IMG/VR virus record: IMGVR_UViG_3300024303_000011
From: a virus
Lineage: Duplodnaviria; Heunggongvirae; Uroviricota; Caudoviricetes
Strand: one strand, 5' to 3'
DNA length: 64,000 nucleotides
Shown one piece after another: positions 2 through 32,647 of this stretch (position 1 is its first letter; every line of letters starts with the position of its first letter). The position numbers and the translations under genes are program-made. The notes beneath the pieces are model-generated. The model made no database searches. It was not told the DNA's origin and saw only the letters and a program-made list of their open reading frames with translations.

Positions 2-91
2 ATTTTTCCTATCTTAAATGTTGAAGTAGGAACTCAACGAGAACCAGAGAGCATTGAAACTGTAGTTGAAGTTGAGTGTGTATTGAAATAA
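2..91 (+). CDS. 3' fragment of an upstream CDS (29 codons, truncated by window edge)
   Basis: Open frame from window start to TAA at 89-91; overlaps RBS of next gene. Confidence 0.25.
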   Translation: MFPILNVEVGTQREPESIETVVEVECVLK

Positions 92-102
92 GGAGGATAA
101 AT

Positions 103-978
103 ATGTGTAGGCCAACTTTGATTTTGCTCGTTGGCGTTCCCGGCGTTGGGAAGTCTACTTATGCAAAAAATTATATCAGCGAAGGTACAAAGACGTCGGT
201 ACATCTCTCTTCCGATAAGATCCGCGAGGAGCTGTATGGGAACGAGTCCATTCAAGGAGATCCGGCAGAGGTATTCTCTCTTATGCAGAAAAGAGCAGTA
301 GAGGCGCTCAAAGAAGGCCATGATGTTATATATGATGCAACGAATGTAACCCGTCGTGATAGAGCAAGCATTATTGGGATCTGCCCCAAGTTTGCTAAGA
401 TTGAGGCACATGTTATCTGGGCACCCATAGAGGAGTGCATTAAACGTGATTCTGCAAGAGATCGTACCGTTGGCAAAGCAGTGATCGACAAGATGCTAAA
501 AAGATTTCAGGCTCCTTATTATGACGAGGGTATTGATGAAATTAAAATTATTACACCGGACGGCCACAATGCCGTGAAGTATGAGGTGGATTGCTATGAA
601 GCAATGAATATTCCGCACGACAACCCGCATCATACTAAAGACATTGGGGATCATTGTTTTATGGCTGGAGCGTATTTAGAAAAAAGATGTAATGATATAG
701 ATCTGATTAGAGCCGCAAGAATACACGATATAGGCAAACCATACACAAAGGCTTTTATCGACTCTAATGGAAATTCTTGTGAGCATGCGCATTATTATCA
801 GCATCAGGCCGTCGGAGCGTGGATGTCTTATGGTTGCAATAATATTACGGTCTATTCTGCGTGGCTCATTTCTACGCATATGGAACCATTCTTCAATAGC
901 AAGTATTATAAGAATCTTCCAGAGTGTCTGAAATACAAGATTGATTTGCTGCACGAAGCCGATCTTAATGCACATTAA
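103..978 (+). CDS. P-loop NTP-kinase fused to HD-domain phosphohydrolase (polynucleotide kinase/phosphatase-like RNA end-healing candidate)
   Basis: AGGAGG RBS at 91-96 then ATG 103 (ORF track starts at 76). Walker A GVPGVGKST. C-terminal HD motif pattern H..HD(IHDIGKP)..H..H..D. Confidence 0.6.
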   Translation: MCRPTLILLVGVPGVGKSTYAKNYISEGTKTSVHLSSDKIREELYGNESIQGDPAEVFSLMQKRAVEALKEGHDVIYDATNVTRRDRASIIGICPKFAKIEAHVIWAPIEECIKRDSARDRTVGKAVIDKMLKRFQAPYYDEGIDEIKIITPDGHNAVKYEVDCYEAMNIPHDNPHHTKDIGDHCFMAGAYLEKRCNDIDLIRAARIHDIGKPYTKAFIDSNGNSCEHAHYYQHQAVGAWMSYGCNNITVYSAWLISTHMEPFFNSKYYKNLPECLKYKIDLLHEADLNAH

Positions 979-1025: not shown

Positions 1026-1054
1026 TAGACAAGACAAAATGATTATGCTATAAT
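1026..1054 (+). promoter_or_regulatory. sigma70-like promoter P0 (TAGACA-N17-TATAAT) with ACAAAATGATT in spacer
   Basis: -35 1026-1031, -10 1049-1054; cassette near-identical to P5 at 16383-16411 (TTCGTCAAT..ACAAAATGATT..TATAAT). Confidence 0.5.
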
Positions 1055-1091
1055 ATATACACGGTTGGAGATCTTCTAGATGAATTGATCC

Positions 1092-1112
1092 AATTGTAAA
1101 CGAATTGTAAAC
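1092..1112 (+). repeat. tandem direct repeat (G)AATTGTAAAC x2, upstream element of promoter P1
   Basis: caattgtaaacgaattgtaaacg; related to 20-mer TGTTAATGAATTGTAAATAA found upstream of P2 and P3. Confidence 0.6.
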
Positions 1113-1127
1113 GATTGCAGAACCCAC

Positions 1128-1156
1128 TTGACAGACACAATCGCTTATGATATAAT
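1128..1156 (+). promoter_or_regulatory. sigma70-like promoter P1 (TTGACA-N17-TATAAT) driving tRNA/hairpin-RNA/Ro60 array
   Basis: Perfect consensus hexamers with 17-nt spacer; ACAGAATGATTC motif 20 nt downstream (1176-1187). Confidence 0.65.
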
Positions 1157-1196
1157 ATATACACGATGAACACGACAGAATGATTCATCGTGATAC

Positions 1197-1323
1197 GGGA
1201 CGGTAGCTCAGCGGACAGAGCAACGTAAACATCAACCAATGCGGTTTGACAAAATCGTATGCAGCAATTTTAATGATAAGCCTTATAAGCCGTAGGTCGC
1301 AAGTTCGAATCTTGCTCGTCCCA
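1197..1323 (+). tRNA. tRNA gene with 54-nt insertion in anticodon stem (between nt 29/30); mature anticodon UAU (Ile-like) if insert removed
   Basis: Acceptor GGGACGG/TCGTCCC, D-arm GCTC-AGCGGACA-GAGC, T-arm GCAAG-TTCGAAT-CTTGC, variable AGGTC. 5' exon ends ..AACG(1225), 3' resumes GC-CTTATAA-GCCGT at 1280 giving stem ACGGC/GCCGT. Insert 1226-1279 contains GCAGCAATTTTAA. Confidence 0.5.
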
Positions 1324-1331
1324 ACTAATAT

Positions 1332-1449
1332 GCACGGATAGCTCAGTCGGTAGAGCACAGTAATAACAGGGTTTAGCCATAAGCCCTAACAGCAACTTTA
1401 CAAATGCTTGAGGAGCCTGGTGTCGCTGGTTCAAGTCCAGCTCCGTGCA
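1332..1449 (+). tRNA. tRNA gene with 45-nt insertion between nt 29/30; mature anticodon loop TTGAGGA (anticodon GAG, class I body) if insert removed
   Basis: Acceptor GCACGGA/TCCGTGC, D-arm GCTC-AGTCGGTA-GAGC, T-arm GCTGG-TTCAAGT-CCAGC. 5' exon ..ACAG(1360), 3' resumes GC(1406)-TTGAGGA-GCCTG. Insert 1361-1405 contains AACAGCAACTTTAC. Confidence 0.45.
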
Positions 1450-1456
1450 ACAATAC

Positions 1457-1575
1457 AGGGAGATAGTCAAGTGGTAAGACAATAGACGTCAATAAATAGT
1501 CTTGCTAAAGAGTATTCAGCAATCATAGACAACCAATTCTATGTATCGGTGGTTCGAATCCATCTCTCCCTGCCA
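1457..1575 (+). tRNA. tRNA gene with ~44-nt insertion in anticodon loop (stem ATAGA/TCTAT intact); anticodon not resolvable; CCA encoded
   Basis: Acceptor AGGGAGA/TCTCCCT perfect, D-arm GTC-AAGTGGTAA-GAC, T-arm GGTGG-TTCGAAT-CCATC. Loop plus insert 1487-1537 contains TTCAGCAATCAT; ATAGAC direct repeat at both insert ends. Confidence 0.45.
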
Positions 1576-1579
1576 TCAT

Positions 1580-1643
1580 AAGGCACTAACAGCAAACTTA
1601 GATACATAATTCTTGCTATTGAAATTAGATGTAAAGGTGCCTT
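1580..1643 (+). ncRNA. hairpin RNA element A (7-bp stem AAGGCAC/GTGCCTT, 50-nt loop starting TAACAGCAAACTTAG)
   Basis: Inverted repeat read directly; loop motif shared with elements B-D and with tRNA inserts. Confidence 0.4.
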
Positions 1644-1652
1644 GAATTTTAA

Positions 1653-1741
1653 AAGACGCACACAGCAAATTTACTAAGGATAATAAATTTATTTTGTGAA
1701 TGAATTTTAGTGGGTTCAAATCCCACAAGTTTATGCGTCTT
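1653..1741 (+). ncRNA. hairpin RNA element B (stem AAGACGC/GCGTCTT; loop starts ACACAGCAAATTTAC; contains internal T-arm-like GTGGG-TTCAAAT-CCCAC)
   Basis: Inverted repeat plus tRNA T-arm mimic at 1710-1726; Y-RNA-like architecture. Confidence 0.4.
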
Positions 1742-1749
1742 GTTCAAAA

Positions 1750-1815
1750 GAGAGACCAACAGCAAACTTTATTTGGCTCCATAAAATCACTCTGCCCTAG
1801 AGAAAACGGTCTCTC
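1750..1815 (+). ncRNA. hairpin RNA element C (stem GAGAGACC/GGTCTCTC; loop starts AACAGCAAACTTTATTTGG)
   Basis: 8-bp inverted repeat with conserved loop motif. Confidence 0.4.
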
Positions 1816-1833
1816 GAACGTTAATTATATCTT

Positions 1834-1890
1834 AAGACACGCACAGCAATTTCAAGGAATAGACTTTTAATCTATAAACCTACGTGTCTT
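1834..1890 (+). ncRNA. hairpin RNA element D (stem AAGACACG/CGTGTCTT; loop starts CACAGCAATTTCAAGG); ends 37 nt before Ro60-like start
   Basis: 8-bp inverted repeat with conserved loop motif. Confidence 0.4.
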
Positions 1891-1926
1891 GGATTGATTA
1901 TAAATAATATTTTGGAGGAAATCAAA

Positions 1927-3465
1927 ATGGCATTTATGGATTCAATCAAAAATGAACTCAACAACGAGAAGCGGATCACCGAGAACGGTGCTGTGGGTTA
2001 TCGTACCACAGGTAAGGGTCTGCTGGATCTCAACTTTAGCGTGGCTTCACTGAGAAACGCATCGGAAGCAGATATCATCGATAAGTTCATTCATGCTTAT
2101 TTCGAAGATAAGCTCACTGCCACTAAGTGGCTGTTCTATGCAAGAGACGCAAGAGAGGGCCTTGGTGAACGTAGACTGTTCCGAGTTGTTATGGAAGAGT
2201 TTGCGGTACAGCAGCCTGAGATCGTCAAAGAACTGATTAAGTTTGTGCCCGAATATGGTCGCTGGGACGATCTGTGGTGCATGCTTGATACAGACATGCA
2301 GACCGATATTGTTGATATGGTTCAGAAACAGCTTCTTATTGATCTTAATAATATGAAGTTGAACAAGTCGGTTTCTCTTCTTGGAAAGTGGATGCCTAGT
2401 GAAAATGCATCTTCTGCCGAGACGAAGGCACGAGCAACACTCATCAGAAACAAGCTTGACATGACATCCAAGTATTATCGTAAGATGCTATCTAAGTTGC
2501 GCAAGTACATTGACGTCGTCGAGTGCAAGATGTCTGCTAAGCAGTGGAGTGAAATCGATTACGAGGCAGTTCCCAGTAGAGCTAACCTGATTTACAATAA
2601 CGCTTTCCTTCGTAATGATGAAGAGCGTCGCAGAGAATATCTTGGCAAGCTTGAAAAGGGCGAAGCTAAGATTAACGCCGGAGTTCTGTTCCCTCATGAC
2701 ATTGTTCACAAATATGGTCGTTCTTATGGTGTAGATGCGGCTCTTGAAGGCATGTGGAAAGCACTGCCGGATACTGTAAAGGGTTGCGGTAATACAATCG
2801 TTGTGGCTGATGGATCTGGCAGTATGCAGGTTCGAGTAGGCAATACTGATGTATCTGCTCTTGAAGTTGCTAATTCTCTTGCAATTTACTTTGCAGAGCA
2901 TTCTTCCGGTGAGTTTAAGAATAAGTATATTACGTTCAGTGAAAGGCCTCAGCTGGTTGACTTTAGCAAGGCAAAGAACCTTCGTGAGAAGCTTAATATT
3001 GCACGTCAGCATAACGAGGTAGCTAATACCAACATTGAAGCGGTGTTCGATCTGATCCTGTCTACGGCTATCAATAACCATATGCATCAGGAAGATATTC
3101 CCGTAAATATTCTGATCATCTCAGATATGGAATTTGATGGCTGTGCAACTACCAATACGGTTAGACGCAGTGGTTGGTATGCTTCATATGAGCGTCCCAC
3201 CGCAACTCTTTTTGAAACAATTGAGAAGAAGTATAGAGCTGCTGGATATAAGATCCCGCGTCTCGTGTTCTGGAACGTAAATTCTAGAACTGGCACCATT
3301 CCTGTTAAGGAAAATGATCTTGGCGTAGCTCTTGTCAGTGGCTTCTCCGTCAACATTGCTAAGATGGTTATGTCTGGAAAGACTGATCCTTACGAGTGTT
3401 TGCTTGAGGCTCTGAATGTAGAGCGGTATCAGCCTATCGAGGATGCCATTAAAGACATTTGTTAA
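1927..3465 (+). CDS. rsr: Ro60/Rsr-like RNA-binding protein (TROVE domain + C-terminal vWA domain)
   Basis: GGAGGAA RBS then ATG 1927. C-terminal vWA MIDAS VVADGSGSM and ILIISDMEFDG resemble Ro60 LLAVDVSASM and FIVFTDNETF. N-terminal region Ro60-like (ENGAVGYRTTG...ARDAREGLGERRLF). Length 512 aa. Confidence 0.55.
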   Translation: MAFMDSIKNELNNEKRITENGAVGYRTTGKGLLDLNFSVASLRNASEADIIDKFIHAYFEDKLTATKWLFYARDAREGLGERRLFRVVMEEFAVQQPEIVKELIKFVPEYGRWDDLWCMLDTDMQTDIVDMVQKQLLIDLNNMKLNKSVSLLGKWMPSENASSAETKARATLIRNKLDMTSKYYRKMLSKLRKYIDVVECKMSAKQWSEIDYEAVPSRANLIYNNAFLRNDEERRREYLGKLEKGEAKINAGVLFPHDIVHKYGRSYGVDAALEGMWKALPDTVKGCGNTIVVADGSGSMQVRVGNTDVSALEVANSLAIYFAEHSSGEFKNKYITFSERPQLVDFSKAKNLREKLNIARQHNEVANTNIEAVFDLILSTAINNHMHQEDIPVNILIISDMEFDGCATTNTVRRSGWYASYERPTATLFETIEKKYRAAGYKIPRLVFWNVNSRTGTIPVKENDLGVALVSGFSVNIAKMVMSGKTDPYECLLEALNVERYQPIEDAIKDIC

Positions 3466-3492: not shown

Positions 3493-3521
3493 TTGACAAG
3501 AGTTTAACAATGTGATATAAT
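3493..3521 (+). promoter_or_regulatory. sigma70-like promoter P2 (TTGACA-N17-TATAAT) with downstream ACAGAATGATTG (3531-3542)
   Basis: Consensus hexamers; same cassette architecture as P3. Confidence 0.6.
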
Positions 3522-4025
3522 AATCACACAACAGAATGATTGAGTAGTGAGTACAGATCCATATCGAGTATGCCACAACGTACAAACTCAAGTAGGTATC
3601 GCCGTAATGCGTCTTATGTACAAAGACATCTTGAGAGTGGCAGAGATTAGCCCAACGATGTTGTAAGCAGGTAGCATAGGCGACATTTGGAGTCGTCGGA
3701 GCCGTTCGAATCGGATGAGGGTGACCACAAAGAAAATCTCTTAAAAGTACGAGATATGAAAAAGCAAGGTAAACATTAATGAACAGCCTGGTCAGCATAT
3801 GAGGATATTAATGATTAATTAATAATGAATTGACCGTTGGAAGTGGGTGCACACACGAATCCAACCCTTGCTCCTGTGGGTGAAAGTCCTACAGCTCAAT
3901 CTAATATGCCAGTTACGGCTTTGAGTGGGTTCGAGTCCCACCGCTGGTGACAAGCGGCGTATACAGCCGCAAGTTTAGTACTAAGTGTTATGGCTGTTGA
4001 ATTAGCTACTCGACGGCTATAATAT

Positions 4026-4298: not shown

Positions 4299-4431
4299 GC
4301 GGGATTGGTGGAATGGCAGACACCGGGGACTTGTTCGAGAGCCAGAGCGAAGTGAGGTCATCACTCACCTTGAGCACCAAAAATCCCCTGGTAGCAATAC
4401 CGTATCGGTTCGAGTCCGATATCCCGCACCA
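4299..4431 (+). tRNA. class II tRNA (long variable arm) with ~47-54 nt insertion in anticodon loop; anticodon UAA (Leu) or UGA (Ser) depending on junction; CCA encoded
   Basis: Acceptor GCGGGAT/ATCCCGC, anticodon stem GGGGA/TCCCC separated by 54 nt, variable hairpin GGTA-GCAA-TACC, T-arm ATCGG-TTCGAGT-CCGAT. Confidence 0.5.
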
Positions 4432-4433
4432 AA

Positions 4434-4552
4434 TAGTCACCAACAGCAACTAAATTGTCTTCGTCATAATTGAAGATGTAGCTTAGAGGTTAGAGCATCA
4501 GCCGTGAAAAGCTGAAGACGCTGGTTCGAATCCAGTCTTTAAACGGTGACTA
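4434..4552 (+). ncRNA. tRNA-like ncRNA element E: terminal stem TAGTCACC/GGTGACTA, bulge with AACAGCAACTAAATTG, D-arm, 8-nt anticodon-like loop (TCAGC-CGTGAAAA-GCTGA), T-arm GCTGG-TTCGAAT-CCAGT
   Basis: Does not fold as canonical tRNA (acceptor cannot pair) but retains D/T arms; Y-RNA (YrlA)-like layout. Confidence 0.4.
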
Positions 4553-4558
4553 GATTAT

Positions 4559-4633
4559 GGAGAATGAAGTGTAATGGTTTGCACTCCGGCCCTGGGAGCT
4601 GGAAGAGAGGTTCGATTCCTACATTTTCCACCA
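4559..4633 (+). tRNA. tRNA-Pro-like (anticodon UGG) with C33 and weak T-stem; CCA encoded
   Basis: Acceptor GGAGAAT/ATTTTCC, D-arm AGTG-TAATGGTTTG-CACT, anticodon arm CCGGC-CCTGGGA-GCTGG, T-loop TTCGATT. Confidence 0.4.
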
Positions 4634-4663: not shown

Positions 4664-5122
4664 ATGGCACATTCAGGATACTCTGACGATTTTTGTATAG
4701 TATGTGGTAAGAGATTATCAAGAGGTCATTTATCACAATATTGTCAAATTCATTACAATGAACAAAGAAGAAAAGAAAAAATTGAAAAATGGCTAGAAAG
4801 CGGAGACACGGGAACGTCGGTAGACACAACAATTCGTGGTGTTATTAGGGATTATATATTAGAACAACAAAACAAATGTTGTGCAATATGTGGCATTAAA
4901 AATGAATGGAATGGAATGCAACTGAATTTTGTTCTTGATCATATTAATGGAGACGCATCTGAATCATCAAGAGACAATTTGCGTTTAATATGCCCAAACT
5001 GCGATAGTCAATTAGATACATATAAATCAAAAAATAAAAATTCTTCACGAACTAAAAGAAAAGAATTCTTAAAAAACTTAAATACATACTCAAAAAACAA
5101 AAACAATGGGGAGTTAGCCTAA
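4664..5122 (+). CDS. HNH homing-type endonuclease (Zn-ribbon + HNH)
   Basis: CIVCGK..C, VLDHINGD...NLRLICPNCD HNH motif; 3' end overlaps tRNA-Ser by 15 nt. Confidence 0.6.
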   Translation: MAHSGYSDDFCIVCGKRLSRGHLSQYCQIHYNEQRRKEKIEKWLESGDTGTSVDTTIRGVIRDYILEQQNKCCAICGIKNEWNGMQLNFVLDHINGDASESSRDNLRLICPNCDSQLDTYKSKNKNSSRTKRKEFLKNLNTYSKNKNNGELA

Positions 5123-6587: not shown

Positions 6588-7634
6588 ATGAGCAAGTTTG
6601 TAGCAGCCCTTTTGGCTATGGTTATTCTGGTTACTGGCGGACTGATTATTTATGGCGCAACTCATGAGACGATTCCTGCTGGCTACGTTGGTTATGTTTA
6701 TGACCGTAACGCACGAGACGACGATAATGTGATTCCCGGAACATCCGTAATTAACGAAGCAAGAACAGGTCGAATTTCAATTAACCCAATCACTCAGGAT
6801 GTACTTACCTATCCCACTACTATTATTAGCTGCAACTGGACTGGTCTTGCAGAAGGTGATAACAAGAAGGATATGAGCATGCAGATTGCATCTCAGGAAG
6901 GCAAGAACATCGATGCTGATATTTATATTAGCGTAAGACCTCTCGACATCGAGAAAATCATTAAGTCTTTCGGTACAAAGTCCTTCGATTCCATTGTTGA
7001 TAACGATATCTATGGTCTTACTAAGGGTAAACTCTCTTCCGTGTCTCAGGCATATTCCGTTTATGATATCCAGTCTTCTAGAGTAGAGATCCAGTCTGAG
7101 GTATTTAACATCCTTTCCAGCACTCTAAACGACGTATATGGTGTTGAACTTGTCCGCCTTGAGATTGGTACTCTTATTCTCCCTGAAGATATCCAGGCTA
7201 AGATTGACCAGAAGACTCAGGCACAGAATGAGGTTGAACTCGCTAAGCTTGAGCGCGAGCGTCAGAATGAAGTGAATCAGCAGATCGTCGATCAGCAGAA
7301 GGCACAGTCTGAGCGTGAGATGATTCAGCGCCAGGCAGAAGCAGACGCGGCTGCATATGAAAAGCAGAAAGAAGCAGAAGCTCTTCTGGCAGTCTCCGAG
7401 GCAAATGTAAAGATCGCAGAGCAGGAGCTTGAGATCGCAAAGCTTGAGAAAGAAGCAGAACTCGAAAAGCAGAAGGGTTACACCACGGAGTACTTTAAGG
7501 ATAAGGAACTTGACGTAAAGATGGCTGCAGTAGAAGCAATCAACCCGACCGTGAAGACTATTATTACATCCGGTGAAGGAGAGGGCTTCGGTGCGCTCGT
7601 TGGTATCAAAGAAGTTCTTAATAGTATCGGCTAA
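6588..7634 (+). CDS. SPFH/band-7 (stomatin/prohibitin/flotillin-like) membrane protein with C-terminal coiled coil
   Basis: N-terminal TM, SPFH-like core, Glu/Lys/Gln-rich coiled coil (ELAKLERERQNE...). Confidence 0.55.
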   Translation: MSKFVAALLAMVILVTGGLIIYGATHETIPAGYVGYVYDRNARDDDNVIPGTSVINEARTGRISINPITQDVLTYPTTIISCNWTGLAEGDNKKDMSMQIASQEGKNIDADIYISVRPLDIEKIIKSFGTKSFDSIVDNDIYGLTKGKLSSVSQAYSVYDIQSSRVEIQSEVFNILSSTLNDVYGVELVRLEIGTLILPEDIQAKIDQKTQAQNEVELAKLERERQNEVNQQIVDQQKAQSEREMIQRQAEADAAAYEKQKEAEALLAVSEANVKIAEQELEIAKLEKEAELEKQKGYTTEYFKDKELDVKMAAVEAINPTVKTIITSGEGEGFGALVGIKEVLNSIG

Positions 7635-7755: not shown

Positions 7756-8805
7756 ATGATTGAAAGGTTTAAACGAATGACAATCAGTGAAATAAAATCC
7801 ATGTTAAAAACACCGGAATATGGATTCCTAAAAACGAATGAGCATCTTGGGCCTAATGTTATTTTACTAACGCTTGGTGGCAGCTACGCATATGGAACAA
7901 ATGTTGAAACATCAGATGTTGATATTCGTGGTTGCGCTTTGAACTCAAAAGAGGAAATTTTGACGAATAAAAATTTCGAACAGTTTGTCAATGAAGAAAC
8001 AGATACAACGATCTATAGCTTTAATAAGCTTATCAGTCTGCTTTCTAACGTAAACCCAAATACTATTGAACTGCTTGGATGTAAGCCCGAACATTATGTA
8101 TATCTTTCTCCAGTAGGTAAAGAGCTGCTGGAACATAAACATCTGTTTTTGTCTAAAAAGTGTGTACATTCTTTTGGCGGATATGCGAACGCACAGCTCA
8201 GACGTCTAGACAACAAAGCAGCGAGACTTGTTACGCAGACAGAACAAGAACATCATATTTTAAAAAGTATCGAAAATGCCTCATATACCTTCAAAGAGCA
8301 TTACTTCAAATATGACGATGAGGCCATCAAGCTATATATCGATAAATCAGAGTCTGAAGAATATGATACTGAAATCTTTATGGATGTAAATCTTAAGCAT
8401 TATCCTTTGCGGGACTACAAAGGAATGTGGTCTGTAATGCACAATGTTGTTAAAGAATACGGCAAGATCGGAAAGCGCAATTCTCATGCAATAGAGCATG
8501 GCAAACTTGGTAAGCACATGATGCATTTGGTCAGGCTGTATCTAATGTGTCTTGATATTCTTAACGATGGCGAAATTATTACATACAGAGAAAAAGATCA
8601 CGACTTCCTTATGAGTATTCGCAATGGTAAATATCTAGATGACAACAGACAGCCAACGCCTGAGTTCTTTGATATTGTTGATGACTTGGAGGCTAAGCTG
8701 GATGCGGCAAAACATAGTACGGATCTACCAGATAATCCTGATTATAAAAAGATCAATGAGTTCGTTGCTTCTGTGAATGAAAGAATTGTTAGAGGTGAAG
8801 TATAA
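7756..8805 (+). CDS. Pol-beta superfamily nucleotidyltransferase (GS...DxD), function unknown
   Basis: LTLGGSYAYGTNVETSDVDIRG NTase signature. ATG 7756 lies inside the conserved promoter-proximal motif, so true start may be ATG 7777 (MTISEIKS). Confidence 0.5.
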   Translation: MIERFKRMTISEIKSMLKTPEYGFLKTNEHLGPNVILLTLGGSYAYGTNVETSDVDIRGCALNSKEEILTNKNFEQFVNEETDTTIYSFNKLISLLSNVNPNTIELLGCKPEHYVYLSPVGKELLEHKHLFLSKKCVHSFGGYANAQLRRLDNKAARLVTQTEQEHHILKSIENASYTFKEHYFKYDDEAIKLYIDKSESEEYDTEIFMDVNLKHYPLRDYKGMWSVMHNVVKEYGKIGKRNSHAIEHGKLGKHMMHLVRLYLMCLDILNDGEIITYREKDHDFLMSIRNGKYLDDNRQPTPEFFDIVDDLEAKLDAAKHSTDLPDNPDYKKINEFVASVNERIVRGEV

Positions 8806-9192: not shown

Positions 9193-9741
9193 ATGAAAAC
9201 TTTAATTGTAATTGACATGCAGAATGACTTTATCACAGGTTCTCTTGGAACCAAAGAAGCACAGGCTATTGTACCTAACGTAAAAAAGAAGATCGATGAG
9301 TATCTGGAGCGTGGCGACGAAGTTATTTTTACCAGAGACACCCACGATGAGGACTACCTAAATACCAACGAAGGAAAGCATCTTCCTGTTAAGCATTGCA
9401 TCTTTGGCACCGAGGGTTGGGAGATCCACCACGATCTTGATGTTAAGGATTGCGAACATATTGACAAACATACTTTTGGTTGGCAGTTCTGGACTTCTAC
9501 TGAGTCTGCTTACGAAAATGACGAGGATGATACGTATTACTTCCGAGATCTTGAAGACATTGAGATCGTCGGTCTGTGTACGGATATCTGCGTGGTATCC
9601 AACGCGTTGATCCTTAAAGCAAATTATCCTTGGGCAAATATTACTGTGGACGCAAGCTGTTGCGCTAGTGTAACTCCTGAGAAGCACAAGGCAGCACTTG
9701 AGGTTATGAAGAGCTGTCAGATCAATGTAATCGGAGAGTAA
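9193..9741 (+). CDS. pncA: nicotinamidase (isochorismatase family)
   Basis: VIDMQNDF N-terminal motif, GLCTDICV catalytic Cys context. Confidence 0.65.
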   Translation: MKTLIVIDMQNDFITGSLGTKEAQAIVPNVKKKIDEYLERGDEVIFTRDTHDEDYLNTNEGKHLPVKHCIFGTEGWEIHHDLDVKDCEHIDKHTFGWQFWTSTESAYENDEDDTYYFRDLEDIEIVGLCTDICVVSNALILKANYPWANITVDASCCASVTPEKHKAALEVMKSCQINVIGE

Positions 9742-9743
9742 TA

Positions 9744-10274
9744 ATGAATACTTTTCAGAAGTTTATTGGCCATGCGCGAACCGTGCATAAGCATCGTGCA
9801 ATGGTGCGAAAACTATGTTTCAAATGCGGCCTCTATTGGCAGGGATTGACGCACGATCTCTCTAAGTATCATCCCGTTGAATTCTGGAATGGAGTCAAAT
9901 ACTACACTGGAACAGCATCTCCGCATCACGGGGAACGTAAAGACAAAGGATACTCAGATGCGTGGGTTCATCATCATAACAGAAACAAACACCATGTAGA
10001 GTATTGGCAGGATATTAATCCTAACACTGGTGTAAGTGTGCCTATCGAGATGCCTGAGAAGTATCTAAAAGAGATGATCTGTGATCGTGTAGCAGCTTCT
10101 ATGACATATCTAGGTGATAAATACTATAGTGCTGCACCTCTTGAATATTATGAAAGTCATAAGTACGAAAATAGATGGCATCATATGACACAAGAAAAGG
10201 TTGAGTATTATCTCGATAAAATTGCAAGACACGGATTTGAAAAAATTATGAGAGACATAGACCAAATGATATGA
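9744..10274 (+). CDS. His-rich hypothetical protein (possible metal-binding)
   Basis: HHGERKD...HHHNRNKHH cluster; no recognisable family. Confidence 0.3.
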   Translation: MNTFQKFIGHARTVHKHRAMVRKLCFKCGLYWQGLTHDLSKYHPVEFWNGVKYYTGTASPHHGERKDKGYSDAWVHHHNRNKHHVEYWQDINPNTGVSVPIEMPEKYLKEMICDRVAASMTYLGDKYYSAAPLEYYESHKYENRWHHMTQEKVEYYLDKIARHGFEKIMRDIDQMI

Positions 10275-10493
10275 CACTCATTGATATACTTTACTACATG
10301 GCTTATGCTACATTTGCCATAATTGGTATTGGCGTATTTATAGAATACTTAAAAAATATTTAAGGGAAATAATTAATTATGGAAACAATTATACTTGCTT
10401 ATATTGGACTTATGGGCGTTCTTGGTCTTGGCTTTATCCTTTTCGGTATTGTAGCAATCAAAGAATTGAATAAATGAAAGGAAATAATTGATT

Positions 10494-11717
10494 ATGATGA
10501 AACTGTCTCCCATTATTACCCATCTTACTGATACTGACCTGTATAAGTTCACTATGCTCCAGACCATGTTCCATCGTCATACTAATCTTAATGGCACTTA
10601 TATCTTCAAATGCCGCAATAATGACGTGAAGTTTACCGCAGAAATGGTGGAAGAAATCAATGCGCAGATTGACCACCTTTGCACTCTTCGTTTTACCGAT
10701 GAAGAACTTGACTATCTCGCGTCTCTGCGTTTCATCAAGCCTGACTTCGTTGAGTTCCTTCGCATCTGGCATCCTCTTCGTAGATATGTAGAAGCTTATA
10801 TGTCTGATTATGATGTTCATGGAACTAATCCAGAAGGAACACTCAATATCAAGGTAGAGGGCCCTCTCTTCAATACTATGATGTTTGAAATCTATCTCCT
10901 TGCTATTGTCAACGAAGTATATTTCCGTATGGAGTATAACTATCTTGACCTCGTTGATAGTGCGAGAAAGGAGCTTTACAGCAAACTTGTAGGATTTGTA
11001 CCTCCTGACCCTCTTTATACTTTCAACTTTGCGGAATTCGGCACCAGAAGACGCCTTAGCCGAGAGTGGCAGGATTATGTAATGACTGAGCTTCTCAAAA
11101 CCAAGCACTGTGTTGGCACTTCTAATGTCTATCTCGCTATGAAATATGGTATCAAGGCAATCGGCACCTACGCTCACGAATATGTTCAGATGTTCCAGGG
11201 CGTCCCCGGCATTCAGCTTGCATATACTAACAAGGCAGCTCTTGAAGAGTGGTTTGAAGAATACCAGGGTGACCTGGGAACCGCATTGACTGATACTCTT
11301 GGAACTGACCTGTTCCTGCGGGACTTCAACAAGCTTCAGGCGACTTGCTATACTGGTGTTCGCCATGACTCTGGTGACCCCTACGAGTGGGGCGAGAAGA
11401 TTATTGAACACTACCTAAAGCTTGGTATTGATCCTAAAACCAAGACCCTTCTGTTTAGCGATAGCCTTGATTTTGAAAAAGCTCAGGCGATCTACGATCA
11501 CTTTAATGGCCGCATTAATGTAAGCTTTGGTATTGGCACTTATCTCACTAACGATACTAATGTAGATCCTCTGAATATCGTCATTAAACTTCAGTATGTA
11601 AATGGTCATCCAGTAGCAAAACTGAGCGATGTTCCCGGTAAGACGATGTGTCAGGACGAGAACTATGCAGACTATTTGAAGCAGGCGGTTGATTATAGAC
11701 TGCGGGAAGGTATTTAA
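10494..11717 (+). CDS. pncB: nicotinate phosphoribosyltransferase
   Basis: N-terminal LTDTDLYKFTMLQ matches PncB LLDTDAYKLHMQQ; length ~408 aa. Track start 10488 is TTG; ATG 10494 preferred. Confidence 0.6.
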   Translation: MMKLSPIITHLTDTDLYKFTMLQTMFHRHTNLNGTYIFKCRNNDVKFTAEMVEEINAQIDHLCTLRFTDEELDYLASLRFIKPDFVEFLRIWHPLRRYVEAYMSDYDVHGTNPEGTLNIKVEGPLFNTMMFEIYLLAIVNEVYFRMEYNYLDLVDSARKELYSKLVGFVPPDPLYTFNFAEFGTRRRLSREWQDYVMTELLKTKHCVGTSNVYLAMKYGIKAIGTYAHEYVQMFQGVPGIQLAYTNKAALEEWFEEYQGDLGTALTDTLGTDLFLRDFNKLQATCYTGVRHDSGDPYEWGEKIIEHYLKLGIDPKTKTLLFSDSLDFEKAQAIYDHFNGRINVSFGIGTYLTNDTNVDPLNIVIKLQYVNGHPVAKLSDVPGKTMCQDENYADYLKQAVDYRLREGI

Positions 11718-11719
11718 TA

Positions 11720-11953
11720 ATGTGCATTGAAACAGTTGGTGAATTAAAACAAATGCTTAAAGAGCTTAACCTTGCGGATGATGCTCCAATTATTATGACA
11801 AGAGAATCATTAAGAGAGGCTCCCTATAGTGTTCCCGTGCGCCCGCTTTACATTTATACTGGCGTTATTGATTCAAAATATAATCAGTATGAACGACGAC
11901 TTGAAGCTTGTTATTCTGCTGATGGAAAATATGGATTGATGGTACTTGGATAA
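11720..11953 (+). CDS. hypothetical protein
   Basis: ORF with tight coupling to pncB stop. Confidence 0.3.
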   Translation: MCIETVGELKQMLKELNLADDAPIIMTRESLREAPYSVPVRPLYIYTGVIDSKYNQYERRLEACYSADGKYGLMVLG

Positions 11954-12120
11954 TGAATAAATGGATAAATAAGTTTCTTTGGTGGTTTCTTCATATTACT
12001 AAAAGAAATTGTAGGCATTGTTCTGTCTTTGATGAAGAAACTAACAAATGTAAAATATTTAATTGTTGTTTTCGCCCAGATGATGATTTTTGTATGCGTT
12101 GGATAAAGAAGGAGTAAAAA

Positions 12121-12687
12121 ATGACAGGTGTAATTCTATTTCGCGCCCAGCCTTTTCATAACGGCCACCTAGCGCAGATTAAACGTGCTTATAAAGATAT
12201 GCGGAAACTTGGTGGCGATTTGTATGTTCTAGTCGGTAGCGCCGATAAATTTGGCACTAAACGCAACCCTATTCCAATTGATATACGGCTTGATTTAATT
12301 AAAAGTAGTCTCAATGAAGTACTCAATTCAGATCAATTGAAACATATTGAGATAGTCCCTCTTAATGACCTTAGCGATGAAGCCAATAATACACATTCTT
12401 GGGGCGAATATCTTTATAGCAAAATGTGTGAATATACTGGCGATACTGATTTTGTCTTCTATTACAGTGACAAACCCGAAATCGCATTGAGTTGGTTCGG
12501 TGACAATGAACGAGAGCATATTTATTTCAAATTTCTTCCAAGAGTAGATAATGTGAATGCTACCGAAGTAAGAGGACTCCTTTATACTTGTGTTCTTGGC
12601 GATGCTATGAAATTGGAGCTCCTGCTTCCTAATTATGTTTATGGCAAAATTACTACACTTCATGATTATATTGTAAATGCGAGGTAA
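12121..12687 (+). CDS. NMN/NaMN adenylyltransferase-like nucleotidyltransferase (HxGH family)
   Basis: AQPFHNGH (H/TxGH) and C-terminal NATEVRG (ISSTxxR-like) motifs; AAGGAG RBS. Confidence 0.55.
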   Translation: MTGVILFRAQPFHNGHLAQIKRAYKDMRKLGGDLYVLVGSADKFGTKRNPIPIDIRLDLIKSSLNEVLNSDQLKHIEIVPLNDLSDEANNTHSWGEYLYSKMCEYTGDTDFVFYYSDKPEIALSWFGDNEREHIYFKFLPRVDNVNATEVRGLLYTCVLGDAMKLELLLPNYVYGKITTLHDYIVNAR

Positions 12688-12692
12688 AGAAA

Positions 12693-13469
12693 ATGTTTGA
12701 TGCAGTAAAAGCAAAAAATGATTGTGTGCAGTGGATACGCGATTGGTTTGAAGAGAATGGCAAAGATTGTAATGCGGTTATTGGCATCTCTGGTGGTAAG
12801 GATTCCACTGTTGTGGCTGCTTTGTGTGTTGAGGCACTTGGCAGGGATAGAGTTATTGGAGTATTGATGCCTAATGATATTCAAAATGATATAGCAGATG
12901 CTTTTAAGGTAGTTGAGCATCTTGATATTAAACACGCAGTGGTTGATATAAATAAAGCATATAAAGCTATTTTGAATAGTGTATTTTATTGTTCGCCTCG
13001 TGGAAATATGGGAAGACATATTATTCCTACAAATCAGGCGATAACCAATCTTCCTCCACGTATTCGTATGACTGTACTCTATGCAATGTCTCAGTCGTTG
13101 AACGGTCGTGTAGCTAATACATGCAACCTTTCTGAGGATTACGTAGGTTATAGCACCCGTTGGGGAGATTCCGTTGGAGACTTTAGCCCCCTTGCTAATC
13201 TTACCACGGATGAGGTAGTTGCTATTGGCGACGCTTGTGGGTTGCCCTATGAACTCACTCACAAAACTCCATCTGATGGCCTTTGTGGCAAAACAGATGA
13301 AAATAATCTTGGATTCACTTATGAAATACTAAATAAATATATCCTAACCGGCATATGTGAAAATGAAGCAGTAAAAGAAAAGATTGATAATCTACATAAC
13401 AAAAACTTGTTTAAACTTCAGCCTATACCTAGTTTTGTACCGATTGGTGTGCGCGGTTATGATGTTTAA
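12693..13469 (+). CDS. nadE: NH3-dependent NAD+ synthetase
   Basis: PP-loop GISGGKDSTV; length 258 aa. Confidence 0.65.
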   Translation: MFDAVKAKNDCVQWIRDWFEENGKDCNAVIGISGGKDSTVVAALCVEALGRDRVIGVLMPNDIQNDIADAFKVVEHLDIKHAVVDINKAYKAILNSVFYCSPRGNMGRHIIPTNQAITNLPPRIRMTVLYAMSQSLNGRVANTCNLSEDYVGYSTRWGDSVGDFSPLANLTTDEVVAIGDACGLPYELTHKTPSDGLCGKTDENNLGFTYEILNKYILTGICENEAVKEKIDNLHNKNLFKLQPIPSFVPIGVRGYDV

Positions 13470-13486
13470 TAAAAGGAGGTGCTAAT

Positions 13487-13690
13487 ATGGATTGGTCAAA
13501 AGCAACAGTATTAACAACAAAATTTCAAGAGATCAAAAAAGAATTAGATTTGGCTAGACCAAGAGATACTTCCATGTCAGCAGCAGAATGGAATGTATAT
13601 CAGTGCAGACAGGCAATCATCAAGCTATGTGATATCTTGGATGAAATGGCTAAAGATAACGTCTGTGAAAATAATTATGCCGAGCAGTAA
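13487..13690 (+). CDS. hypothetical protein
   Basis: AGGAGG RBS. Confidence 0.3.
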   Translation: MDWSKATVLTTKFQEIKKELDLARPRDTSMSAAEWNVYQCRQAIIKLCDILDEMAKDNVCENNYAEQ

Positions 13691-13802
13691 AAAATTTAAT
13701 CGGTTCGGATATGTGTATACAAAAATACGCAACAAACATCCGCAATGGTCCAAAGGGCAAATACGTGCTTGTACGATATATGCGATTAGTAGGAGGAAAT
13801 GA

Positions 13803-30842: not shown

Positions 30843-30856
30843 CGTATCTCACCTCC

Positions 30857-32629: not shown

Positions 32630-32647
32630 ATAAACTACTCTCCGTTC

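What the first reader, a model, noticed from the sequence alone, without database searches (positions are those of the whole stretch)
1026..3465. Ro60/Rsr-like gene preceded by a tandem array of ACAGCAA-loop hairpin RNAs and insert-bearing tRNAs: candidate phage Y-RNA/Ro60 module
Seen in sequence: 700 nt between two consensus promoters and the Ro60-like start codon contain no ORF. They hold three tRNA-like genes with inserts, then four paralogous hairpins (1580-1643, 1653-1741, 1750-1815, 1834-1890). The hairpin stems are 7-9 bp (AAGGCAC, AAGACGC, GAGAGACC, AAGACACG) and the 45-75 nt loops all begin (A)ACAGCAA(A)(C)TT. One hairpin embeds a tRNA T-arm mimic (GTGGG-TTCAAAT-CCCAC). The last hairpin ends 37 nt before a TROVE+vWA protein gene. 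Established knowledge: bacterial Ro60 orthologues (Rsr) are encoded next to their Y RNAs, and those Y RNAs are tRNA-like. Phage-encoded Rsr with several hairpin RNAs sharing one loop motif has not, to my knowledge, been described. Inference: this is an RNA-surveillance or decoy module.
Basis: partly seen in the sequence, partly recalled or inferred. Interest (0 to 1): 0.85.

Follow-up and report, generated by a model that had tools for sequence, protein, structure and literature searches.

The report
Phage Ro60-like protein with ACAGCAA RNAs
A phage gene for a distant, ring-shaped relative of the Ro60 RNA-binding protein sits beside a battery of small RNAs that share one motif (an 8-bp stem followed by ACAGCAA) fused to pieces of tRNA. 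The same protein-RNA pairing recurs in very different phages, which points to an undescribed family of Y-RNA-like partners.

Summary
Two consensus promoters (1026-1054, 1128-1156) drive a roughly 770-nt ORF-poor leader. It holds three insert-bearing tRNA-like genes and four hairpins. All seven carry (N)CAGCAA, and an eighth unit lies at 4434-4552.

The RNAs are not YrlA and match no other Rfam 15 family, apart from tRNA hits to the tRNA-like units. A covariance model of the hairpin (8-bp covarying stem, 1 nt, ACAGCAA) gave 167 hits in 80 held-out viral loci that encode a homologue. All 167 are on the gene's strand, and 66 of 80 loci have at least one hit. Units also flank the gene in Listeria, Bacillus, Enterococcus, Staphylococcus, Mycobacterium, Klebsiella, E. 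coli, Pseudomonas and Campylobacter phages and a cyanophage. A 25-tRNA array of phage T5 has none.

The variable parts are tRNA pieces: T-arms, anticodon-arm mimics (CUUUUAA) and whole or permuted tRNA-like domains.

Best reading: these are Y-RNA-like partners of a phage Ro60-like protein. RNA binding and function remain untested.

The parts
1026..1054 (+). Promoter-like site P1 (TAGACA, 17-nt spacer, TATAAT, with TG)
   Evidence: 11 of 12 consensus positions.
1128..1156 (+). Promoter-like site P2 (TTGACA, 17-nt spacer, TATAAT, with TG)
   Evidence: 12 of 12 consensus positions. A promoter-like TTGACA / -10 sequence precedes the array in L001, L013, L014, L017, L018 and L019 (read by eye).
1163..1192 (+). 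5' leader hairpin at the predicted transcript start, with loop sequence ACAGAAUGAUU
   Evidence: -8.8 kcal/mol, z -2.25. Similar hairpins follow the promoter in L013, L014, L017 and L019.
1197..1323 (+). tRNA-like RNA t1. It has an acceptor stem, D arm and T arm. The anticodon arm is replaced by about 70 nt holding a local hairpin followed by AUGCAGCAAUUUUAAUG (CAGCAA at 1262-1267).
   Evidence: Orthologues are present in L001, L013, L014, L018 and L019.
1332..1449 (+). tRNA-like RNA t2. The insert is an 8-bp local hairpin followed by A-ACAGCAA-CUUU (motif 1389-1395).
   Evidence: Rfam tRNA 48.5 bits with a 56-nt insert. In an alignment of 14 homologues that includes cyanophage B23, 17 of 19 pairs show compensatory changes.
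1457..1572 (+). tRNA-like RNA t3. The insert (hairpin plus UUCAGCAAUC, CAGCAA at 1517-1522) lies between the D arm and a degenerate anticodon arm.
   Evidence: Rfam tRNA 50.7 bits. Orthologues keep an intact anticodon arm after the insert: CCA in L013 and L014, GUA in L017 and L019.
1580..1643 (+). Hairpin hA: 8-bp basal stem, 1 nt, ACAGCAA (1589-1595), then a variable interior
   Evidence: Model R1 scores 46.4 bits, E 1.6e-8; this unit was in the training set.
1653..1741 (+). Hairpin hB: basal stem, ACAGCAA (1662-1668) and a T-arm mimic at 1710-1726
   Evidence: z -4.3. R1 scores 39 bits, E 1e-6, and this unit was not in the training set. Orthologues keep the T-arm mimic.
1750..1815 (+). Hairpin hC: basal stem GAGAGACC, then ACAGCAA (1759-1765)
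   Evidence: R1 scores 34.8 bits.
1834..1890 (+). Hairpin hD: basal stem, ACAGCAA (1843-1849) in a large 5' internal loop, a 3-bp helix, then an anticodon-arm mimic AUAGA-CUUUUAA-UCUAU (1859-1875). It ends 36 nt before the start codon.
   Evidence: In an alignment of 17 orthologues, 11 of 15 pairs show compensatory changes and the loop is C-U-N-N-U-A-A. The 11-mer GACUUUUAAUC is identical to the anticodon arm of the window's tRNA-Lys.
1927..3465 (+). Gene for a 512-aa Ro60-like protein (DUF2828 helical repeats plus a vWA domain with an intact MIDAS motif D295-x-S297-x-S299). The Shine-Dalgarno GGAGGA lies at 1914-1919.
4434..4552 (+). Eighth unit: basal stem UAGUCACC/GGUGACUA, ACAGCAA (4443-4449), a hairpin, and an embedded tRNA-like domain with D, anticodon-like and T arms
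   Evidence: z -2.6. Rfam tRNA scores 46.8 bits at 4472-4541. Orthologues are in L013, L018, L019 and L014.

Best explanation
This is a phage ribonucleoprotein module built on the Ro60/Y-RNA plan.

Shown. One transcript, started at the consensus promoters, carries eight small structured RNAs and the mRNA of a Ro60-fold protein of the DUF2828/vWA family. Each RNA combines a constant module with a variable one.
- The constant module is a helix of about 8 bp. One strand runs, after 1 nt, into single-stranded ACAGCAA(N)UUU.
- The variable module derives from tRNA. It can be a complete tRNA-like body (t1-t3 and the unit at 4434-4552), a T-arm (hB) or an anticodon-arm mimic (hD).

Inferred.
- The constant module is the binding site of the Ro60-like protein. 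It is the counterpart of the conserved stem and bulge that Ro60 recognises in Y RNAs.
- The tRNA-like modules bring tRNA-binding factors to the protein, or occupy them. Candidates are processing or modification enzymes, exoribonucleases such as PNPase, and host tRNA-targeting defence nucleases. This would parallel Y RNA tethering PNPase to Rsr.
- The unit next to the ribosome-binding site (hD) probably also lets the protein feed back on its own translation.
- tRNA-processing enzymes probably release the individual RNAs from the precursor.

For: Gene to RNA. In 80 held-out IMG/VR loci encoding a homologue (41-72% identity), model R1 found 167 hits at E<=0.01. All are on the gene's strand and none is on the other strand. 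66 of 80 loci have 1-8 hits. The median distance is 293 nt upstream or about 128 nt downstream of the gene.

RNA to gene. Of 79 hairpin-forming matches to a sequence pattern in IMG/VR, 34 have the gene within the same 1-14-kb piece. All 34 are co-oriented with the gene, at 35-72% protein identity.

Breadth. At 30-40% protein identity, units flank the gene in Listeria A511, Bacillus Tsamsa, Enterococcus EF1, Staphylococcus S-CoN_Ph2, Mycobacterium Whirlwind, Klebsiella KP13-26, E. coli JH2, Pseudomonas Astolliot (variant ACAGCAC), Campylobacter F371 and cyanophage B23.

The hairpins follow the gene, not the tRNAs. In S-CoN_Ph2 and Whirlwind the units abut the gene while the nearest tRNA is 1-2 kb away. 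A T5 array of 25 tRNAs with no homologue in the piece has no hit on the tRNA strand.

RNA-level selection. In the basal stem, 6 of 7 pairs show double-sided changes. There are 69 compensatory cells against 15.9+-3.3 in shuffles and at most 9 in slid controls. Inner helices of hD and t2 also covary.

Y-RNA-like architecture. A 5'/3' stem closes a large internal loop that holds the invariant motif, and a tRNA-like module follows. In Tsamsa, JH2, L008 and Whirlwind the tRNA-like part is permuted (T arm before D arm), as in YrlA. KP13-26 and Whirlwind give sub-threshold YrlA hits of 38-40 bits, E about 1e-5 to 1e-4.

Against: - No binding, expression or processing data exist for any of these RNAs.
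- The AF2 model is only moderately confident (mean pLDDT 68, pTM 0.67). There is no TROVE Pfam hit and no significant sequence match to Ro60.
- 14 of 80 gene-bearing loci, plus Acinetobacter ME3 and L011, show no unit within about 4-5 kb.
- About half of the hairpins found by pattern have no gene in the DNA piece held, although most of those sit in tRNA arrays on large contigs.
- The hairpins used for the covariation count were selected for having a stem, so the percentage paired is circular.
- Co-orientation is partly expected inside phage gene modules.
- Only one negative-control tRNA array was tested.
Confidence: 0.68

Rival explanations
1. The elements act only in cis. The repeated stem-ACAGCAA units are operators or processing signals in the mRNA leader or trailer that control translation, stability or cleavage of the DUF2828 transcript. 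They would not be free-standing RNP partners.
For: - The array and the gene have no terminator between them.
- 38 of 80 loci have a unit ending within 120 nt of the start codon.
- In Vibrio phage VH7D the single unit's 3' arm overlaps the start codon and encloses the Shine-Dalgarno sequence.
Against: - Units occur in 1-8 copies and are often downstream of the gene. In Astolliot and JH2 they lie up to about 3.6 kb away among tRNAs.
- Many carry their own conserved, covarying tRNA-like, T-arm or anticodon-arm modules, which an operator does not need.
- Autoregulation is compatible with, and is part of, the best explanation.
Confidence: 0.12
2. The hairpins are generic features of phage tRNA clusters, such as processing punctuation or decayed tRNA genes. 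They sit near the DUF2828 gene only because that gene also lives in tRNA clusters.
For: - The gene lies in or beside tRNA arrays in most phages examined.
- Orphan hairpins lie in arrays of 8-26 tRNAs.
- The variable parts look like tRNA fragments.
Against: - The invariant ACAGCAA and the fixed register to the stem persist across phages with about 35% protein identity. Decay products would not stay that way.
- In S-CoN_Ph2 and Whirlwind the units abut the gene rather than the tRNA.
- The T5 array of 25 tRNAs has none.
- In the window, 7 of 8 units precede the gene and only 1 lies among the 12 tRNAs.
Confidence: 0.08
3. The RNAs are functional, but their partner is another factor and the Ro60-like protein is only a neighbour. 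That factor could be a host RNA chaperone, a nuclease or a tRNA-modification enzyme. The RNAs could equally be protein-free decoys for tRNA-targeting toxins.
For: - Anticodon-arm mimics keep a C-U-N-N-U-A-A loop, most often with UUU or GUU.
- T-arm mimics are common.
- tRNA-targeting defences against phage are well known (my own knowledge).
Against: Tight, strand-specific linkage to this one gene family across very different phage lineages and hosts is best explained by a direct partnership. The conserved part is the non-tRNA module.
Confidence: 0.1

Closest known systems
Bacterial Ro60 (Rsr) with YrlA-type Y RNAs (Rfam RF02553; Chen et al. 2014, PMC4201824)
   Same: - A ring-fold Ro60-like protein with a vWA domain, encoded beside and on the same strand as its small RNAs.
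- Each RNA is a closing stem, a conserved motif at the 5' side of an internal loop, and a tRNA-like module.
- In some phages the T-then-D arm order is permuted, as in YrlA.
   Different: - The protein is DUF2828/DUF7788, not Pfam TROVE.
- The RNA motif is ACAGCAA, not GNCGAAN0-1G.
- The YrlA model scores far below its threshold.
- There are up to eight RNAs per locus.
- The variable modules include bare T-arm or anticodon-arm mimics, and unpermuted tRNA bodies with the module placed at the anticodon arm.
Thermus phage phiLo Ro60 with Yrl1/Yrl2 (PMC12135203; PDB 9L5Y, 9KOP)
   Different: - phiLo Ro60 is a recognised TROVE protein.
- Its two RNAs carry a CGAA bulge.
- Its binding and its PNPase complex were shown experimentally, whereas nothing has been tested here.
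Bas63 (Felixounavirus) gp130, a Ro60-like counter-defence protein (preprint 10.1101/2024.10.10.617714)
   Same: It is probably an orthologue of the JH2 homologue examined here (inference, not checked). The authors note that it lies next to tRNA genes and suggest that some of them may be Y RNAs. It gives the only phenotype reported for a probable family member: it counters the Ppl defence system.
   Different: No RNA motif, RNA family or binding was described. Here the RNAs are defined and shown to occur in Felixounavirus JH2.
Stable non-tRNA and tRNA-like RNAs of the phage T5 tRNA region (annotated in NC_005859)
   Same: Discrete stable RNAs of unknown function are interspersed with phage tRNA genes, and some are tRNA-like.
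   Different: The T5 RNAs lack the stem-ACAGCAA module. No DUF2828 homologue lies in that 25-kb region.

Membership tests
Ro60/Rsr (TROVE) proteins | Match to the Pfam TROVE domain PF05731 | tested here: not met
   No TROVE hit even at E<=10. The matches are DUF2828 at 1.9e-32 and DUF7788 at 3.1e-46.
Ro60/Rsr (TROVE) proteins | Helical-repeat ring plus C-terminal vWA fold | tested here: met
Ro60/Rsr (TROVE) proteins | vWA domain with a MIDAS motif | tested here: met
   D295, S297, S299, T368 and D400 are invariant across 14 distant homologues. VWA_2 scores E 0.003 and vWA_Ro60 (PF25045) E 0.01, both below their cut-offs. The top PDB profile matches are Ro60 vWA regions at E 0.09-0.46.
Ro60/Rsr (TROVE) proteins | Binds Y RNA on the outer surface and misfolded RNA ends in the central cavity | not testable with these tools
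   This needs biochemistry or a solved structure.
DUF2828 / PHROG 850 phage 'RNA-binding protein' | Full-length profile match | tested here: met
   PHROG 850 matches at E 3.4e-140 over residues 1-502. 702 phage records hold a homologue. There are 7,919 50%-identity cluster representatives at E<=1e-3.
YrlA Y RNA (Rfam RF02553) | Covariance-model score at or above the gathering threshold of 69 bits | tested here: not met
   The best score in the window is 24.6 bits, and that hit straddles t1 and t2. The best scores in related phages are 38-40 bits.
YrlA Y RNA (Rfam RF02553) | GNCGAAN0-1G motif near the 5' end, the Ro60 binding site (PMC4201824) | tested here: not met
   The conserved motif is ACAGCAA. 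C, A, G, C and A were required by the search, the preceding A is 74% conserved and the following A 91%.
YrlA Y RNA (Rfam RF02553) | Encoded within a few kb of the Ro60-like gene and on the same strand | tested here: met
   All 167 hits are on the gene's strand, and most lie within 1.5 kb.
YrlA Y RNA (Rfam RF02553) | A tRNA-like domain with T and D arms | tested here: met
   This holds for part of the units: t1-t3 and 4434-4552 in the window, and permuted T/D units in L008, L020, L022 and L024. Plain hairpins such as hA and hC lack it.
tRNA (Rfam RF00005) | Cloverleaf with a 7-nt anticodon loop that could decode | tested here: not met
   t2 and t3 pass the tRNA threshold only with a 50-56-nt insert in place of the anticodon loop. 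Default ARAGORN does not call them. With the intron option it produces forced anticodon arms containing mismatches. Some orthologues of t3 do keep a regular anticodon arm after the insert.

The most novel reading that the evidence does not exclude
The RNAs are a set of tRNA-part mimics displayed on a Ro60-like scaffold to capture, titrate or sense host factors that attack tRNAs. The mimics are anticodon arms of Lys/Asn type, T-arms and whole tRNA bodies. Candidate targets are anticodon nucleases and other tRNA-directed defence systems. That would make this a widespread RNA-based counter-defence device.

A bolder variant concerns the t3-type genes. They could be true tRNAs carrying a protein-bound insert between the D and anticodon stems, which is removed or tolerated with help from the neighbouring kinase/phosphatase and RlaP repair enzymes.
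Probability: 0.2. Interest if true: 0.9.

Novelty: new variant of a known kind. Interest (0 to 1): 0.78.

Why it matters
DUF2828 'RNA-binding' proteins form a large phage family: 702 GenBank phage records and about 7,900 50%-identity clusters. Their mechanism is unknown. The only phenotype reported is for a probable member, Bas63 gp130, which counters a defence system.

This work defines a conserved, easily searchable RNA partner with an invariant motif. It gives that family a concrete, testable RNP model. It extends the Ro60/Y-RNA principle to a second protein-RNA recognition code. It also explains many odd 'tRNA-Undet', 'tRNA-OTHER' and pseudo-tRNA calls and many unannotated gaps in phage tRNA regions.

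The anticodon-arm and T-arm mimics offer a direct way to test whether phage Ro-like RNPs deal with tRNA damage or with tRNA-targeting immunity.

Tried and rejected
- Pfam TROVE membership: no hit.
- Single-sequence and close-family profile searches of PDB sequences found nothing significant. Only a diverse profile put Ro60 proteins on top, and those matches are still sub-significant.
- YrlA identity: rejected. The window hit of 24.6 bits simply joins the T arm of t1 to the D arm of t2. No other Rfam 15 family matches the hairpins.
- Nucleotide similarity of the region to GenBank phages found only a tRNA fragment.
- Functional intron-containing tRNAs: ARAGORN with introns allowed gives forced models with mismatched anticodon stems. 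I do not accept these for the window's copies.
- Constant pairing of ACAGCAA with a downstream UUGCU was considered. It is present in hA, t2 and some orthologues but absent in many others, so the motif is more likely single-stranded.
- Terminator function: no terminator-like sites lie in the array.
- Literature: 'DUF2828' returned only irrelevant plant and tardigrade papers. Burroughs & Aravind 2016 and the 2020 Annual Review on bacterial Ro60 are not held. The supplement listing the 22 phages of Chen et al. 2014 is not held either. I therefore could not check whether any DUF2828-type phage was in that set.


Full report
OBSERVATION

Two extended -10 consensus promoters lie at 1026-1054 (11 of 12 positions) and 1128-1156 (12 of 12). 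No terminator-like site lies between them and the gene.

After a 5' leader hairpin (1163-1192) come three tRNA-like genes.
- t1 is at 1197-1323, t2 at 1332-1449 and t3 at 1457-1572.
- Rfam's tRNA model scores t2 at 48.5 bits and t3 at 50.7 bits, but only by skipping 50-56 nt at the anticodon-arm position.
- Default ARAGORN calls none of them.

Four hairpins follow, at 1580-1643, 1653-1741, 1750-1815 and 1834-1890. Put in one register, each is an 8-bp stem, one nucleotide, then ACAGCAA.

CAGCAA occurs seven times on the + strand within 600 nt, including inside all three tRNA inserts. The window-wide count (49 on both strands) is at the shuffle expectation.

An eighth unit lies outside the given range, at 4434-4552. 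It has the stem UAGUCACC, ACAGCAA, a hairpin and an embedded tRNA-like domain.

A covariance model built from 50 hairpins finds only the four array hairpins at E below 1e-5 in the whole 64 kb. One of those four was not in the training set.

THE PROTEIN

The ORF at 1927-3465 is preceded by GGAGGA at 1914-1919.
- It is Pfam DUF2828 plus DUF7788, with only sub-threshold VWA_2 and vWA_Ro60 matches and no TROVE match.
- It belongs to PHROG 850, 'RNA-binding protein'.
- It has homologues in 702 GenBank phage records. The hosts include Escherichia, Mycobacterium, Salmonella, Vibrio, Listeria, Staphylococcus, Campylobacter, Enterococcus and Bacillus.
- It represents about 7,900 50%-identity clusters.

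A profile of 14 distant homologues puts four Ro60 sequences at the top of a PDB sequence search, in the vWA/MIDAS region. Each match is individually insignificant. The MIDAS residues are invariant.

My conclusion is a Ro60-like fold in a distinct sequence family. Mycobacteriophage annotators already call cluster L members 'Ro-like RNA-binding protein'.

THE RNAs ARE A CONSERVED FAMILY LINKED TO THIS GENE

Close relatives. In relatives with 50-85% protein identity the whole array is syntenic. It runs promoter, leader hairpin, three insert-bearing tRNA-like genes, then three to six stem-ACAGCAA hairpins, the last about 40 nt before the start codon.

Basal stem. The stem changes sequence while staying paired (AAGGCAC, AAGACGC, GAGAGAC, GAGAUGC, UAAGCUC, UAUGCCC, UGGGCGC).
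- On a MAFFT alignment of 50 units, 6 of 7 pairs show double-sided changes.
- There are 69 compensatory cells, against 15.9+-3.3 in shuffles and at most 9 in slid controls.
- The units were chosen for having a stem, so the percentage paired is not independent evidence. The compensatory pattern is.

Gene to RNA. A search with a diverse protein alignment returned 80 new IMG/VR loci (41-72% identity).
- The model found 167 hits at E<=0.01 in them. All are on the gene's strand and none is on the other.
- 66 of the 80 loci have at least one hit.
- 120 hits are upstream (median 293 nt) and 46 downstream (median about 128 nt).

RNA to gene. Scanning IMG/VR for AAGRCNCNNACAGCAANTT gave 79 hairpin-forming matches.
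- 34 have the gene in the same 1-14-kb piece, always co-oriented.
- Most of the rest sit in large tRNA arrays on big contigs.

Distant phages. At 30-40% protein identity the units still flank the gene:
- three upstream in Listeria A511;
- two or more in Bacillus Tsamsa;
- one in Enterococcus EF1;
- three directly downstream in Staphylococcus S-CoN_Ph2;
- two, plus two YrlA-like RNAs, downstream in Klebsiella KP13-26;
- three downstream in Mycobacterium Whirlwind;
- several among the tRNAs downstream in E. coli Felixounavirus JH2 and in Pseudomonas Astolliot (variant ACAGCAC);
- two upstream in Campylobacter F371;
- two, plus a t2-type tRNA-like gene, in cyanophage B23.

Exceptions and control. 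Acinetobacter ME3, L011 and 14 of the 80 loci show none. A T5 region with 25 tRNAs and no homologue has no hit on the tRNA strand.

ANATOMY

The consensus comes from 275 distinct units: 5'-(U/A)(A/U)AAGRCRC-N-N-ACAGCAA-N-UUU-A ... GYGYCUU-G-3'. The median length is 70 nt.

In the tRNA-like forms the helix next to the motif is a local hairpin lying 5' of it. Even there, the strand that runs into the motif often reads UAAGNNNN. What is conserved is therefore a helix whose strand continues into N-ACAGCAA.

No constant pairing partner for the motif exists, so it is probably single-stranded in a large asymmetric internal loop.

The variable parts derive from tRNA.
- hB and its orthologues hold a T-arm.
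- hD holds a 5-bp stem with a C-U-N-N-U-A-A loop. In the window this is AUAGA-CUUUUAA-UCUAU, and the central 11 nt are identical to the phage's own tRNA-Lys anticodon arm.
- Across all units the loop triplets are mostly UUU and GUU.
- Other units enclose whole tRNA-like domains. In Tsamsa, JH2, L008 and Whirlwind these are in the permuted T-then-D order typical of YrlA. Sub-threshold YrlA hits occur in KP13-26 and Whirlwind.

MECHANISM

Shown: a Ro60-fold protein family and a structured RNA family are genetically coupled, on the same strand, across very diverse phages. The RNAs combine an invariant module with tRNA-derived modules.

Inferred:
- The invariant module is the protein's binding site, the analogue of the Y RNA stem and bulge.
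- The tRNA-like modules recruit or occupy tRNA-binding factors.
- The unit next to the ribosome-binding site allows feedback. In VH7D the only unit encloses the Shine-Dalgarno sequence and the start codon.
- tRNA-processing enzymes release the units from the precursor.

The neighbourhood fits RNA repair and counter-defence. It holds an AAA_33 kinase with an HD domain (76-978), a tRNA array, a Band_7 gene, an RlaP nucleotidyltransferase (7756-8805) and NAD-salvage genes. RlaP adds nucleotides to damaged RNA ends (PMC12776372).

Two published findings bear on this.
- phiLo Ro60 binds two upstream Y-like RNAs and forms a complex with host PNPase (PMC12135203).

RIVALS

Three alternatives remain: purely cis-acting operators, generic tRNA-array punctuation, and a different protein partner. 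Each explains part of the data. None explains all three of these: the invariant non-tRNA motif, its fixed register to a covarying stem, and its strand-specific linkage to one gene family both inside and outside tRNA arrays.

NOVELTY

Ro60/Y-RNA modules, including phage ones, are known for TROVE proteins (PMC4201824, PMC12135203). I found no description of the stem-ACAGCAA RNA family, of its anticodon-arm, T-arm or insert-bearing tRNA forms, or of its link to DUF2828 proteins. I looked in Rfam 15 and in the searchable literature. Some key reviews could not be read.

I class it as a new variant of a known kind. It is of high interest because it is widespread and immediately testable.

Noticed in passing
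window 3493-4025: A third perfect consensus promoter (3493-3521) drives about 500 nt with no plausible ORF. The stretch ends near a T-arm-like GAGTGGGTTCGAGTCCCAC (about 3923-3941). It is conserved at 66-77% identity downstream of the homologous gene in L013, L018 and L019, and in part in L014, L016 and L048. It has no Rfam match. It may be a large structured phage RNA.
   Followed up: partly
window 4299-4431: A tRNA-Leu(UAA)-like gene carries a 47-nt insert in the anticodon loop. ARAGORN calls it only with introns allowed, and it has no ACAGCAA motif. Parts of it are conserved in L018, L019, L036 and L145.
   Followed up: partly
window 4558-4630: A tRNA-like sequence is detected only as a sub-threshold Rfam tRNA-Sec hit (38.4 bits against a threshold of 47). 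ARAGORN does not call it.
   Followed up: no
window 1175-1185 and 3531-3541: Both promoter-proximal leaders contain the same 11-mer, ACAGAATGATT. In relatives, the leader hairpin after the promoter has a similar loop (ACAAAATGATT).
   Followed up: no
window 9193-15758: A cluster of NAD-related genes: isochorismatase/nicotinamidase-like (9193-9741), NAPRTase (10488-11717), a cytidylyltransferase-like gene that may be an NMNAT (12121-12687), NAD synthase (12693-13469) and an NAD-dependent DNA ligase (13803-15758). It looks like a phage NAD-replenishing set, possibly directed against NAD-depleting defences.
   Followed up: no
window 76-978, 4664-5122, 6588-7634, 7756-8805: Neighbouring genes are an AAA_33 kinase with an HD domain (a polynucleotide-kinase-like gene), an HNH endonuclease inside the tRNA array, a Band_7/SPFH protein and an RlaP nucleotidyltransferase. 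A Band_7 gene also accompanies the DUF2828 gene in L014, L017, L018 and Mycobacterium phage Whirlwind.
   Followed up: partly
L021 1498-2049 (Listeria phage A511): A ROOL RNA match (87.5 bits, E 2.6e-16, just under the 99.1-bit threshold) lies about 650 nt upstream of the three ACAGCAA hairpins and the DUF2828 gene.
   Followed up: no
L026 4954-4996 (Vibrio phage VH7D): The only stem-ACAGCAA unit starts at the predicted transcript start. Its 3' arm overlaps the start codon of the DUF2828 gene and encloses the Shine-Dalgarno sequence. This suggests translational autoregulation.
   Followed up: partly
L152 (phage T5, record 30284-33949 and 40848-41566): The T5 tRNA region is annotated with eight stable RNAs of unknown function, some of them tRNA-like. 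None carries the stem-ACAGCAA module.
   Followed up: partly
L013 1889-2003, L014 2020-2136, L017 2023-2148, L009 3684-3810: In these relatives the t3-type gene keeps a regular anticodon arm (CCA, GUA or GAA) after the roughly 40-nt hairpin-ACAGCAA insert. A near-duplicate of the stem's 5' strand lies before the insert, so two alternative pairings are possible.
   Followed up: partly
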